In this document: in pieces, positions 13,601-17,638 of the stretch
Layout: every line of letters starts with the position of its first letter
How positions within the stretch are numbered: the stretch's first letter is position 1
Assembly: GCF_009914755.1 (NCBI RefSeq)
Contig: NC_060926.1
Strand: one strand, 5' to 3'
DNA length: 64,000 nt
Source: the human T2T-CHM13v2.0 reference genome, Homo sapiens
Position numbers and translations under genes: made by a program
The notes under the pieces: generated by a model
Database searches by the model: none
Told to the model about the DNA's origin: nothing
The model's input: only the letters and a program-made list of their open reading frames with translations

Positions 13601-15360
13601 AGAATGCCCCTTTTTTTAGTCCACAGTGAGTGGAGTACACACACACCTCATTTTATTGCACTATGTTTTATTGTGCTTTACAGATACCATATTTTTTTCA
13701 TAAAATGAATATTTGTGGCAACCCTGCATCAAACAGTTATTGGCACCATTTTTCCAAGCACCACCTGTGCTTACATTTTATCTGTTTTACATTTTGGTAA
13801 TTTTCAAAACATTGCCAATGTTTTCATTATTATGATATCTGATATGGTCATCTCTAATCAGTGATATTTGATGGAACTATTGTAATTATTGTGGGACTCC
13901 ATGACAACACCCATAAAAGATGGCAAACTTAATCAATAAATGTGTGTGTTCTGACTGCTCCACTCACCAGCCTTTCTCCATCCCTCTCTCTCTCTCTTCT
14001 GTCCCACCTATTTCTTAAGACGCAACAATATTAACATTACACCAGTTAATAACTGAGCAATGGCCTCTATCTATTCAAGTGAAAGTAAGTATCTTACATC
14101 TCTCATTTTAAATTAAAAGGTAGAAAAGTTTGGTGAAGCTTAGTAAGGAAAACAGTCAAAAAACTGAGACGGCCCAAAAGCTAGGCCCTTTGTGTCATGC
14201 AGTTAGGCAAGTTGAGAATGCAAAGGGGAAGTTATTGAAGGAAACTAGATGTGCCGCTCCAGTAAACAAAAGATGAGAGGTAAAACAATCTTATTTCTGA
14301 CTGGAGAAAGTTTTCATGGTCTGCATAGATCAAACTGCTACAACATTTGCTCAAGCCAAAGACCAGTCCAGAGCATGGCTCTAACTCTCCTCAATTCTCG
14401 CAGAGGTTGGTTCACGAGGTTGAGGAAAAGAGCCATCTTCATAAAATAAACGTGCAAGGTGACACAGCAAGTGCTGATATAGAAGCTGCAACAAATTATT
14501 CAGAAGATCTAGCTAAGATCATTGATGAAGGTGACTACGCTAAATGACAGATTTTCAACTTAGATAAAACAGCCTTCTGTTCAAAGAAAATGTCATCCAG
14601 AACTTTCATCGCTAGAGATAAGTCAATGTCTGTGTTCAAAGTGTCAAAGGACAGGGTGACTCTCTTGTTAGGGGCTAATGCAGCTGGTGACTTCAAGTTG
14701 AAGCCAAGGTCATTTACCACTTTAAAAATCCTAAAACCCTTTAGAATTATGCTAAATCAATTCTCCCTGTACTGTAAAAATGAACAACAAAGCTTGGATG
14801 ACAGCACATCTGTTTACAGCATGGTTTACTGAATATTTTAAGCCCACTTTTGAAATATACAGCTCAGGAAAAAAAAAATTCCTTTCAAAATATCACTGTT
14901 CATTGATAATACATCTGGTCACCCAAGAGCTCTGATGGAAATATACAAGGAGATTAATGTTTCCACGTCCACTAATGCAACATTCATCCTGCAGACATGG
15001 ATCAAGGAGTAACTTTTAACTTTACTATTGAAAAATACATTTTTTAAAGCTATACCTGCTGTAGATGGTGATTACCATTAAGAACATTGGTGATTCACGG
15101 GAAGAAGTCAAAATATCAACATTAAGAGAGTCTGGAAAAAGTTAATTTTAATCCTCACAGATGACTTTGAGGAGTTCAGGACTTTGGTGGAGGAATTAAC
15201 TGCAGATGTATGGGAGATAGCAAAAACAAAACAAAACAAAACAAAGAAAACTAGAATTAGAAGGGAGCCTAAAGATGGGACTGAATTGCTGCAATTTCAA
15301 GACAAAACTTGAAGGGATGAGGAGTTACTTCTTATGAATGATCAAGGAAAGTGATTTCTT

Positions 15361-15606
15361 AACCAAACGCCACATGTTCTTAAAAGTGGGAGCTGAATGA
15401 TGAAAATGCATGGACACATGATGGGGGAACAACACACAGTGGGGCCTGTTGGAAGGGGAGTTGGGGAGGGAGAGCATCAGGAAGAATAGCTAAGGGATGC
15501 TGGGCTTCATACCTAGGTGATGGGATGATCTGTGCAGCAAACCACTATGACACACATTTACCTATGGAACAAATCTGCACATGTACCCCTGAACTTAAAA
15601 GTTGAA
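15361..15606 (+). mobile_element. 3' end of an old L1PA (approx. L1PA11-13); 5' part of the chimeric insert
   Basis: aaccaaacgccacatgttct...gggagagcatcaggaagaatagctaa...catgtacccctgaacttaaaagttg; no poly(A) or TSD of its own. Confidence 0.88.
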
Positions 15607-16473
15607 GATTTCCTGTTCCCTCTGTTGTGTCTTGGAGTCTGGAATGATGAAGACCTTGTGCTCTTAGGCAGGTCCTTCCTCTTTATTATTTTAGAATTCT
15701 TCTGGACTCACCCCAACAATAGTTTCAACGTGTTCTGATGATTGGTTGTTAGTCAGAATGAAAATAAGGCCCTTTGATAACAACATGGAAGCTAGAATTG
15801 GTGACATAGATCTGGAAGATAACTTGTCATATAACATGTTTGCTCTCATTTAACTATGAGTTTATTTCCTGCCACTTCTTCTGGGACCAAGAAAATGATG
15901 TTCCAAAGAAATGACATTGCCACATTATTGGAGATCAGTTACAGACCAATGTTGGATACTACCAATGAATTTTCAGTGGTTTGCTTTGTGAAGAAACTCA
16001 AATTCCCATCTGTGATACATTTTGGAATGAGTGGGTTCGATGCCAGCACATTGAAAGATATCCCTCAAAAAACAAAAGGACAAGAGTCATCAGCTCCCAC
16101 ACGAAGTAAAAAATGTGAACCTAATTTTAGCAGTGTTAATAAAGAGCAACTATCCATGAGTCACTGCATCAACAATCCCTGTGTTAGAACATCCTCTCTT
16201 ACCTAAGGCACAGGGGTAAGTGATACATACTTGTCTGAGACCAGTTTCATTAATACTGTTGTTGGTTGTATGTGTCCATAGATGAGTAGCAGTATCTGTT
16301 ACCAGTTTCACTATCTTTTGGAGTTTTGGATAACGTAACTATGCTGTGATATTTACACTTTTTAATGAATTAATTTTAAGTAAAATTGCCATTCTAACTT
16401 TGTATGTGAAATAAAGTTCATACATAATAAAGCTTGCTTATAAAAAATAAAAATAAGATACAAGTTTTTTAAA
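15607..16473 (+). pseudogene. OOSP4B: Processed pseudogene of an oocyte-secreted PLAC1/OOSP-family ZP-N gene (OOSP4B-like)
   Basis: Stitched across frameshifts from ATG 15644/15647: [167 protein letters not shown]. This is colinear with OOSP4B as recalled. No introns; AATAAA at 16410 and 16426; A-rich tail from 16440; TSD 15344-15360/16474-16490. The symbol names the inferred parent, not this locus. Confidence 0.85.
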
Positions 16474-17638
16474 AAAGAAAGTGGTTTCTTGAGATGGAAT
16501 CTATGGAATCTACACCTGGTGAAGCTGCATCAACACTGTTGAAATGACAACAAAGAATTTAGAATAGTCCATAAACTTAGTTGATAAGCAGTTGTCAGGG
16601 TTTGAGAGGACTGACTCCAATTTTGAAAGAAATTCTACTGGGGGTAAAATGCTACCAAACAGCATGACATGCTACAGAGAAATATTTTGTGAAAAGAAGA
16701 GTCAATGAATGCAGCAAACTTCATTGTTTCATTTCAGAAACTGCCACAGCCACCCCAACCTTCAGTAACCACCACCCTGGCCAGTCAGCAGCCATCAACA
16801 TTGAGGCAAGCCCCTCCACCAGCAAAAATATTAGATTAGAATGTATTATAGGCTCAGGTGATCATTAACAGTTTTTAGCAATAAAGTATTTATATTAAGG
16901 TATGTACTTTTTTTAGACATAATGTCATTGCACAAAGTACAACATAGCATAAGTATAAATTGTATATACACTCAGAAGCCAAAATATATCCAGCCATGTG
17001 ACTCTTTTCATTGTAATATTTACTTTATTGAAGTAGTCTGGAACAGACCTGTAATAGCTTTGAGGGATGCTTGTAAGTGGGAATTGAACAGGAAATGTAA
17101 ATTTTTTCTTTTCTTTCTCATATTTATTATTTTTAGGACCACTCTTCTCTGACCTTCACAAATATGGTTCAGGTCCTGAAGTAAAGAAGTCCTACAAAGT
17201 TACATTCTTAGAAACATCTGCATTTCAAGAAAACAAACCAACAAACAGAAAGCAGATATTTTTGTATCATGACATACCAAAGAAATTCATGTAAATTATT
17301 ATCCATTAGCCATATTAAACACAATGATGTGGTTGTACTTCTCTATTATTCTTCCCAATTTTTATTCTAAATCAGTGCAAGCACCTGAATTGCTGAAGAG
17401 TCAGTATTCTTTGCTTTGTGGTTTTACATGTATTATGGGTCTTCACAAAAATTGTCTTGCTTAATTTTGCAGCAGACTATAATTTAGGGAGCATTAGAAT
17501 GAAGTCCAACACCGATATAAAAAATGAACATCATTTTGTTCAGTAGGAAATAGCCTGGCATATTGTAGACCCTTCTGTTTACTTATATGTAATAGCCAAT
17601 TCTAAGCAGAAAGTAAAATGTTGTATAGAAAGAATTGC

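What the first reader, a model, noticed from the sequence alone, without database searches (positions are those of the whole stretch)
15344..16490. L1-mRNA chimeric retro-insertion: an L1 3' end fused to the 5' end of an apparently full-length mRNA under one TSD
Seen: one TSD pair encloses both the 246-bp L1PA 3' end and the retrocopy. The L1 stops at its natural terminus (gaacttaaaagttg) with no AATAAA, poly(A) or second TSD, and ~37 nt later comes the ATG. Established: TPRT template switching makes bipartite retrogenes, typically small RNA 5' plus L1 3'. Here the order is reversed (L1 5', mRNA 3'). Inference: RT finished the mRNA and jumped onto the 3' end of an L1 RNA, which would date the event to that L1PA subfamily. 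Alternative: the parent transcript itself began in an upstream L1, i.e. a fossil L1-derived oocyte 5' exon.
Basis: partly seen in the sequence, partly recalled or inferred. Interest (0 to 1): 0.72.

Follow-up and report, generated by a model that had tools for sequence, protein, structure and literature searches.

The report
Oocyte-gene retrocopy nested in L1 end
A broken, intron-less copy of a gene that is likely the oocyte gene OOSP4B sits directly behind the cut-off end of an old L1 retrotransposon, inside a still older DNA transposon; it most likely arrived in a second, separate insertion into the L1's end rather than in one fused event, which would make it an ordinary nested insertion.

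Summary
The anatomy is real. A 17-bp target-site duplication (15344-15360 / 16474-16490) in a Tigger-like transposon encloses a 247-bp L1PA 3' end without its A-tail, joined directly to a processed pseudogene of a five-exon chr11 gene that starts 3 nt short of the usual 5' end. The 'L1-derived 5' exon' alternative is not supported: the parent has a TATA-like start with no L1 at exon 1, and four sibling retrocopies start there without L1. The template-switch reading is possible but not the best one. The L1 end holds an L1-endonuclease site, and 17 Alus found at such L1 ends show the same geometry arising by a second insertion: 13 of 17 show an inner duplication by eye, in 4 it is decayed or unrecognisable. 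The window's tail holds a degenerate copy of the L1 end (16455-16470) where an inner duplication would lie; this match is suggestive only. L1 piece and retrocopy are equally diverged (7.0% vs 7.8%), which fits one event or two close ones. Odds: sequential insertion 0.6, single template switch 0.25, transduction from a lost source 0.1. Primate orthologs would decide.

The parts
14000..15343 (+). Host DNA transposon, left part (Tigger1-like; name recalled; left boundary not mapped)
   Evidence: 14500-15360 matches many dispersed copies at 68-81% outside itself; 13.2% from the majority base of 14 copies
15344..15360 (+). Outer TSD, left copy
   Evidence: 15 of 17 identical to 16474-16490; single at the empty site in 14 of 14 host copies
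15361..15607 (+). 5'-truncated L1PA-type 3' end, 247 bp, ending at the body/tail boundary with no A-tail (subfamily recalled as about L1PA13-16, not tested)
   Evidence: 7.0% non-CpG from the majority base of 29 relatives
15595..15607 (+). TT|AAAA endonuclease-type site and candidate 5' copy of an inner TSD (15597-15607); likely contracted by one 5-nt unit from the 16-nt long form of the L1 end
   Evidence: sequence; long form in 15 of 29 relatives counted as long or other, short form not a lineage, window L1 nearer the long class
15608..16442 (+). Processed pseudogene of the five-exon chr11 gene (likely OOSP4B); exon junctions near 15716, 15897, 15995, 16143; starts 3 nt after the siblings' 5' end
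   Evidence: 7.8% non-CpG from the majority base of parent and siblings
15644..15667 (+). Start codons (15644, 15647) and in-frame stop at codon 8; ORF broken by indels
   Evidence: parent ORF is 178 aa and open
16426..16431 (+). AATAAA polyadenylation signal of the retrocopy
   Evidence: same place in the parent's last exon
16443..16473 (+). A-rich tail, 31 nt, with a T6 run; absent from the parent's genomic sequence
16455..16470 (+). Candidate decayed 3' copy of an inner TSD: first 12 nt match the long L1 end at 10 of 12 (all 4 non-A positions); the last 4 nt are TTTT instead of GAAG
   Evidence: suggestive, post hoc
16474..16490 (+). Outer TSD, right copy
16491..16760 (+). Host DNA transposon resumes in register (right boundary not mapped)
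   Evidence: alignment across the empty site

Best explanation
Most likely two successive L1-driven insertions: a 5'-truncated L1PA end landed in the Tigger-like element and made the outer TSD, and a nearly full-length mRNA, likely OOSP4B, was then likely reverse-transcribed into the endonuclease site inside that L1's own end. Inferred steps: the first nick at CTT|AAAA and a second nick about 16 nt on would duplicate the long form of the L1 end and place the mRNA's 5' end exactly at the L1 body/tail boundary, pushing the L1's A-tail to the far side of the retrocopy. The 5' copy would later have lost one 5-nt unit, and the 3' copy would have decayed to the sequence at 16455-16470, with the L1's tail shrinking to the few A's before the outer TSD. 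Shown: the three layers, the outer TSD, the spliced structure, the broken ORF. The result is a non-coding fossil with no sign of function.
For: (a) The geometry arises this way in the same genome. Of 27 loci fetched from four pattern searches for an L1-end motif followed closely by an Alu start (fetched in 39, 54), 17 have an L1 3' end upstream. By eye 13 of 17 show the L1 end duplicated after the Alu tail. 6 of 17 have at most 2 nt between the L1 end core and the Alu, e.g. L084; the patterns select for short junctions, so this shows possibility, not frequency. (b) Inner TSDs at this motif decay: L074 has a T8 run in it, 2 of 17 are ambiguous (L088, L096) and 2 of 17 unrecognisable (L094, L097), which could also be single events. 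(c) The window tail matches the long L1 end at 10 of 12, followed by a few A's and the outer TSD, the order this model predicts. 0 of 15 ordinary Alu tails with a delimited TSD hold AAGTT; 1.5% of 20,000 composition-keeping shuffles match as well; 0 of 28 null tails reach the score. (d) Short and long L1 ends are not lineages, and the window L1 is nearer the long class (12.8% vs 14.2%). (e) PMC2836564 (passages): second nick 15-16 bp after TTTT|AA, and Alu inserts into L1 in sense 2.2 times as often as in antisense; the long end is 16 nt from nick to junction. (f) A search for a tail-less young-L1 end joined to an Alu gave 1 match genome-wide, and it has an inner TSD.
Against: The inner TSD is not intact: GAAG is replaced by TTTT, two A's differ, and the 5' copy must have contracted. 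With the 5' sequence as it actually is, 3 of 28 null tails score as high and 6.5% of shuffles contain AAGTT; the long form was chosen after seeing the tail. The window's score lies at the low end of the controls (11 of 17 score as high or higher, on longer search windows). The L1 piece is not detectably older than the retrocopy (16/227 vs 59/761 non-CpG, Fisher p = 0.78), so the two events must be close in time; 13% for the L1 is unlikely (p = 0.036) but 10% is not (p = 0.34). The controls are Alus, not mRNAs. No ortholog could be examined.
Confidence: 0.6

Rival explanations
1. One TPRT event with a template switch in reverse order: ORF2p copied the mRNA to its 5' end, then jumped onto the 3' end of an L1 RNA (possibly the RNA that encoded it) and stopped after 247 nt. 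The G-A shared by the L1 end and the mRNA start (with a cap-derived G) could have set the landing point at the body/tail boundary.
For: One clear TSD encloses both parts. Equal divergence, 7.0% vs 7.8%. No intact inner TSD. Same orientation, direct join, 1-2 nt shared at the junction. Insertions built from two RNAs in one event are seen in cells (PMC11702581, passages: nine cases; their order was not visible to me).
Against: A jump to the 3' end of a polyadenylated L1 RNA would be expected to leave an A-tract; none is there. It leaves the L1-end-like sequence in the tail to chance. Catalogued chimeras have the cellular RNA 5' and L1 3' (PMC11838501, PMC2104539). A capped mRNA 5' end should not suit the RNA-ligation route (own knowledge). 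The one tail-less young-L1/Alu junction found is sequential (one exact pattern, weak).
Confidence: 0.25
2. Partnered 3' transduction: a retrocopy first landed in the end of an active full-length L1 elsewhere; read-through then carried L1 end plus retrocopy here in one insertion, and the source was lost.
For: Explains the missing L1 tail, one outer TSD and equal ages at once; compatible with or without an inner-TSD remnant.
Against: 0 of 6 other retrocopies has this L1 end within 1.5 kb; no second copy of the junction was among the scored matches. It needs a rare first hit in an active element.
Confidence: 0.1
3. The parent transcript began in, or spliced from, an upstream L1, and this copy preserves that L1-derived 5' exon.
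For: A same-strand L1 fragment lies 3.7 kb upstream of exon 1.
Against: That fragment is only 71-76% identical, below unrelated copies elsewhere (82-87%). The 600 nt before exon 1 give no L1 hit and hold a TATA-like box 30 nt before the siblings' 5' end. The junction is not a splice junction: no AG precedes the start in the parent. 4 of 4 full-length siblings start at the same place directly after their own TSDs.
Confidence: 0.03

Closest known systems
Nested L1-driven insertion into an older L1 (sense-biased; PMC2836564), here a processed pseudogene in an L1PA end in a Tigger-like element
   Same: Endonuclease-type site in the host L1 end, sense orientation, full-length insert joined directly to the host end, outer TSD belonging to the host; 17 Alu cases of the same layout found here.
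   Different: The insert is an mRNA copy; the inner TSD is decayed at best; host and insert are not separable in age.
Bipartite chimeric retrogenes (U6/L1, U3/L1, 5S/L1, Alu/L1, mRNA/L1; PMC2104539, PMC4476161, PMC11838501)
   Same: Two RNA copies in the same orientation, directly joined, inside one pair of direct repeats.
   Different: Order reversed: the 5' part is a truncated L1 end and the 3' part a near-complete mRNA, the opposite of the two first defining features.
L1 partnered 3' transduction (definition as in 10.1101/2024.08.27.596794)
   Same: L1 3' end, then non-L1 sequence, then poly(A), then TSD.
   Different: The downstream sequence is a spliced mRNA whose gene has no such L1 upstream; no source element found.
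Ordinary processed pseudogenes of the same parent (chr8 twice, chr6, chr12, chr4, chr21)
   Same: Spliced, polyadenylated, similar divergence (5-10% from the majority base); 4 of 6 full-length with their own TSDs.
   Different: None has an L1 end at its 5' junction.

Membership tests
L1-made processed pseudogene | Introns removed relative to a parent gene | tested here: met
   five chr11 exons contiguous in the window, four GT-AG introns absent
L1-made processed pseudogene | Poly(A) signal followed by a non-genomic A-rich tail | tested here: met
   AATAAA at 16426, tail 16443-16473 absent from the parent
L1-made processed pseudogene | Lies within a TSD | tested here: met
   outer 17-bp TSD; whether it belongs to the retrocopy or to the L1 is the open point
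Nested insertion into an L1 3' end | Endonuclease-type TT|AAAA site in the host at TSD distance from the junction | tested here: met
   15595-15600; 11 nt as it stands, 16 nt in the long form
Nested insertion into an L1 3' end | Inner TSD after the insert's tail | tested here: inconclusive
   10 of 12 match to the long form; 0 of 28 nulls reach it with the long form, 3 of 28 with the actual form
Nested insertion into an L1 3' end | Host older than insert | tested here: inconclusive
   7.0% (CI 4.1-11.2) vs 7.8% (6.0-9.9); 8.9% all sites in a second alignment
Nested insertion into an L1 3' end | Ortholog with host alone | not testable with these tools
   no relatives of this genome are held
Bipartite chimeric retrogene (features as in PMC2104539) | 5' part is a full-length cellular RNA | tested here: not met
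   5' part is a 247-bp truncated L1 end
Bipartite chimeric retrogene (features as in PMC2104539) | 3' part is a 5'-truncated RNA, mostly LINE | tested here: not met
   3' part is an mRNA copy lacking only 3 nt
Bipartite chimeric retrogene (features as in PMC2104539) | Parts directly joined in the same orientation | tested here: met
Bipartite chimeric retrogene (features as in PMC2104539) | Both parts flanked by one pair of direct repeats | tested here: met
   also expected for a nested insertion
Bipartite chimeric retrogene (criterion of PMC11838501) | Both parts appear together across species | not testable with these tools
   no orthologs available
L1 partnered 3' transduction | Source L1 with the same downstream sequence elsewhere | tested here: not met
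   0 of 6 sibling loci with this L1 end within 1.5 kb; a lost source cannot be excluded
L1-derived 5' exon of the parent | Same L1 at or spliced to the parent's exon 1 | tested here: not met
OOSP/PLAC1 gene family (parent) | Signal peptide plus ZP-N domain | tested here: inconclusive
   178-aa ORF with hydrophobic start; exon 2 hits PF23344 ZP-N at E = 0.02, 15.7 bits, below the 24.7 cut-off

The most novel reading that the evidence does not exclude
A germline single-event chimera in the reverse of the catalogued order: ORF2p finished a capped oocyte mRNA and jumped, through a G-A microhomology, onto the body/tail boundary of an L1 RNA, possibly its own. The insertion would then record which L1 family mobilised this pseudogene, and tail-less L1 ends fused to full-length retrocopies would be an uncatalogued class.
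Probability: 0.25. Interest if true: 0.5.

Novelty: new member of a known kind. Interest (0 to 1): 0.22.

Why it matters
Under the best reading it is an ordinary three-layer nested insertion with no sign of function. Its use is as a warning: one TSD around two retro-elements and a missing A-tail do not prove a single event, because an insertion into an L1's own end gives the same picture. Under the rival reading it would be a rare natural record of template switching from an mRNA onto L1 RNA and would name the driver family of a processed pseudogene. Separately, the parent has left at least seven retrocopies with different splice forms, a small fossil record of its old transcripts.

Tried and rejected
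L1-derived 5' exon: rejected. L1 inserted second at the retrocopy's 5' junction: rejected, the L1 has neither tail nor TSD of its own there. The window copy derived from a sibling or the reverse: chr4 is the nearest (10.2%, support 72) but lacks exons 2-3 and has the 3 extra 5' bases, so neither is the other's source. Pfam on three broken frames of the window copy: 0 of 3 hits. Exact-seed repeat search missed the outer TSD because of its two mismatches. The bacterial promoter scan was uninformative. Dating could not separate the events; only 7 of the 15 control L1 ends looked the same type (71/738 = 9.6%, pooled by me from the rows); the other 8 (16-37%) were left out as other subfamilies. The automatic inner-TSD score missed two duplications visible by eye (L081, L093). 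The parent's name and the L1 subfamily remain unconfirmed by any search. Papers on subfamily ages and the 2003 chimera survey were not available, so ages in years are recalled.

Full report
1. The observation. The region 15344-16490 interrupts a DNA transposon that I recall as Tigger1 (many dispersed matches). Fourteen other copies, fetched of the 40 scored because they reached the site, all carry the 17-nt sequence once; the window carries it at 15344-15360 and 16474-16490 with two mismatches. This is a true TSD. Inside lie a 247-bp L1PA-type 3' end (15361-15607), a spliced copy of a five-exon chr11 gene (15608-16442), an AATAAA at 16426 and a 31-nt tail. The L1 ends at ...GTTGAAG, where the 29 relatives examined (29 of the 39 non-self matches) go on into A-rich sequence (by eye). 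The copy's frame stops at codon 8.

2. The parent and its other copies. The parent (G000:C11:59968638-59982378) has four GT-AG introns and an open 178-codon frame with a hydrophobic start; exon 2 gives a sub-threshold ZP-N hit. Six other retrocopies were found (12 of 12 candidates scored). Four reach the 5' end; each starts directly after its own TSD, 3 nt upstream of the window copy's start, 30 nt after a TATA-like box in the parent. None of the six has this L1 end within 1.5 kb. In 50 kb around the parent the L1-like hits are 71-76% identical and at least 2.6 kb from the gene. So the mRNA began at its own start site, and the L1 piece is peculiar to this copy.

3. Dating. Non-CpG distance from the majority base of relatives: L1 piece 16/227 = 7.0% (CI 4.1-11.2), retrocopy 59/761 = 7.8% (6.0-9.9), host 144/1089 = 13.2% (11.3-15.4). 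L1 vs retrocopy p = 0.78; host vs each p <= 0.01; the copy's terminal branch in an ML tree is 0.073. A second alignment gives 8.9% for the L1 over all sites, and 7 same-type L1 ends not selected for likeness pool to 9.6% (8 other rows left out as other subfamilies). The two parts are thus of similar age, by recalled calibration some 40-60 million years, but a gap of 2-3 points cannot be excluded.

4. If the retrocopy inserted into an L1 already in place, the outer TSD belongs to the L1 and encloses both. The L1 end holds TT|AAAA at 15595-15600. To see whether this site is used, I searched the genome for L1-end motifs followed within a few bases by an Alu start (17, 1, 12 and 4 matches, partly overlapping) and fetched 27 loci, leaving out repeats and two of three identical chr17 copies. 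Seventeen have an L1 3' end upstream. By eye 13 of 17 show the L1 end repeated after the Alu tail, 2 are ambiguous and 2 show none. Six have at most 2 nt between L1 end core and Alu. L084 reproduces the window's tail-less join; in L074 the inner copy has turned into a T8 run. The patterns select for short junctions, so these are not frequencies, and the four unclear cases could in principle be single events. They do show that a second insertion makes this geometry and that its inner TSD can decay.

5. Is there an inner TSD here? The L1 end occurs in a short form (14 of 29) and a long form with one more 5-nt unit (15 of 29, long or other). The short form is not a lineage (no diagnostic column beyond chance, 13.5% of label shuffles; within-short distance 0.141, between 0.135) and the window L1 is nearer the long class; the long form also contains an AATAAA. 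From the nick site the long form is 16 nt to the junction, the spacing given in PMC2836564 (passages). The tail at 16455-16470 is 16 nt, matches the long form at 10 of its first 12 positions including all four non-A positions, ends in TTTT rather than GAAG, and is followed by three A's and the outer TSD. Nulls: 0 of 15 Alu tails hold AAGTT; 1.5% of shuffles match as well; 0 of 28 null tails reach the score with the long form, but 3 of 28 do with the actual short form, and 6.5% of shuffles contain AAGTT. The long form was chosen after the fact. This is suggestive, not proof.

6. Weighing. Sequential insertion explains the exact junction position, the missing L1 tail and the odd tail, and has many precedents in this genome; it needs decay of the inner TSD and two events close in time (0.6). 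The single switch explains equal ages and the lack of an intact inner TSD, and two-RNA insertions occur in cells (PMC11702581, passages), but it does not predict a tail-less join and has no precedent found here: the only tail-less young-L1/Alu junction from one exact pattern has an inner TSD (0.25). Transduction from a lost source fits everything but needs a rare first step and no source is found (0.1). These odds are my judgement, not a computed result.

7. Literature. PMC2104539 (abstract and background) defines chimeras as full-length RNA 5', truncated RNA 3'; two of its features are not met here. PMC11838501 (first of 11 parts, section 21 and passages) catalogues non-L1 sequence 5' of L1 only and does not name OOSP in its main text; its supplements were not seen. 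PMC4476161 (passages), PMC2912911 (first of 5 parts), PMC1914374 (passages) and 10.1101/2024.08.27.596794 (passages) gave background. PMC6789731 was seen as a search listing only. Searches showed no description of this locus and no catalogue of L1-5'/mRNA-3' chimeras in their listings; the 2003 chimera survey, which might hold such cases, was not available.

8. Verdict. A real, well-resolved three-layer structure; most likely an ordinary nested insertion of a processed pseudogene into an L1 end. Interest 0.22; the reverse-order chimera stays open at about 0.25 until orthologs are read.

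Noticed in passing
G000:C11:59968701-59968702 (L031, about 1561): The parent has AG|GTAGGT 54 nt (18 codons) upstream of the exon-1 donor used by the retrocopies; none of the 5 retrocopies holding exon 1 has this sequence. Possibly a later-gained in-frame donor that would cut most of the hydrophobic N-terminus; untested.
   Followed up: no
L002-L007: Six more retrocopies of the parent with different structures: chr4 skips exons 2-3; chr12 and chr6 carry extra sequence between exons 1 and 2; chr21 is interrupted by about 300 nt; one chr8 copy and chr21 are 5'-truncated without a recognisable TSD. 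At least seven retrocopies from a likely oocyte gene would point to retrotransposition in the female germline or early embryo.
   Followed up: partly
window 15655-15700 and L006: The window and chr4 copies share a 5-nt deletion in exon 1 and 6 substitutions in 531 columns, and both have a nearby 1-nt loss; chr4 and one chr8 copy also share 6, mostly CpG-type. They may come from an older state or another allele of the parent; the tree is unrooted.
   Followed up: partly
L006, 5' junction: One extra G between TSD and mRNA start in the chr4 copy, as expected from copying of the cap (own knowledge).
   Followed up: no
window 16494-16512 and near 15075: The host transposon has a 9-nt tandem duplication just after the right TSD and a deletion of about 60 nt near 15075 relative to other copies.
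   Followed up: no
L094 and L097: Two Alus joined to L1 ends with no recognisable inner TSD; either decayed duplications or candidates for single-event L1/Alu chimeras.
   Followed up: no
G000:C17:16731412, 18433864, 20405936: The same L1-end/Alu junction occurs three times on chr17, likely through segmental duplication.
   Followed up: no
L031, about 60-130 nt before exon 1: Two CAGCTG E-boxes upstream of the parent's TATA-like box; such boxes are recalled from oocyte promoters; untested.
   Followed up: no
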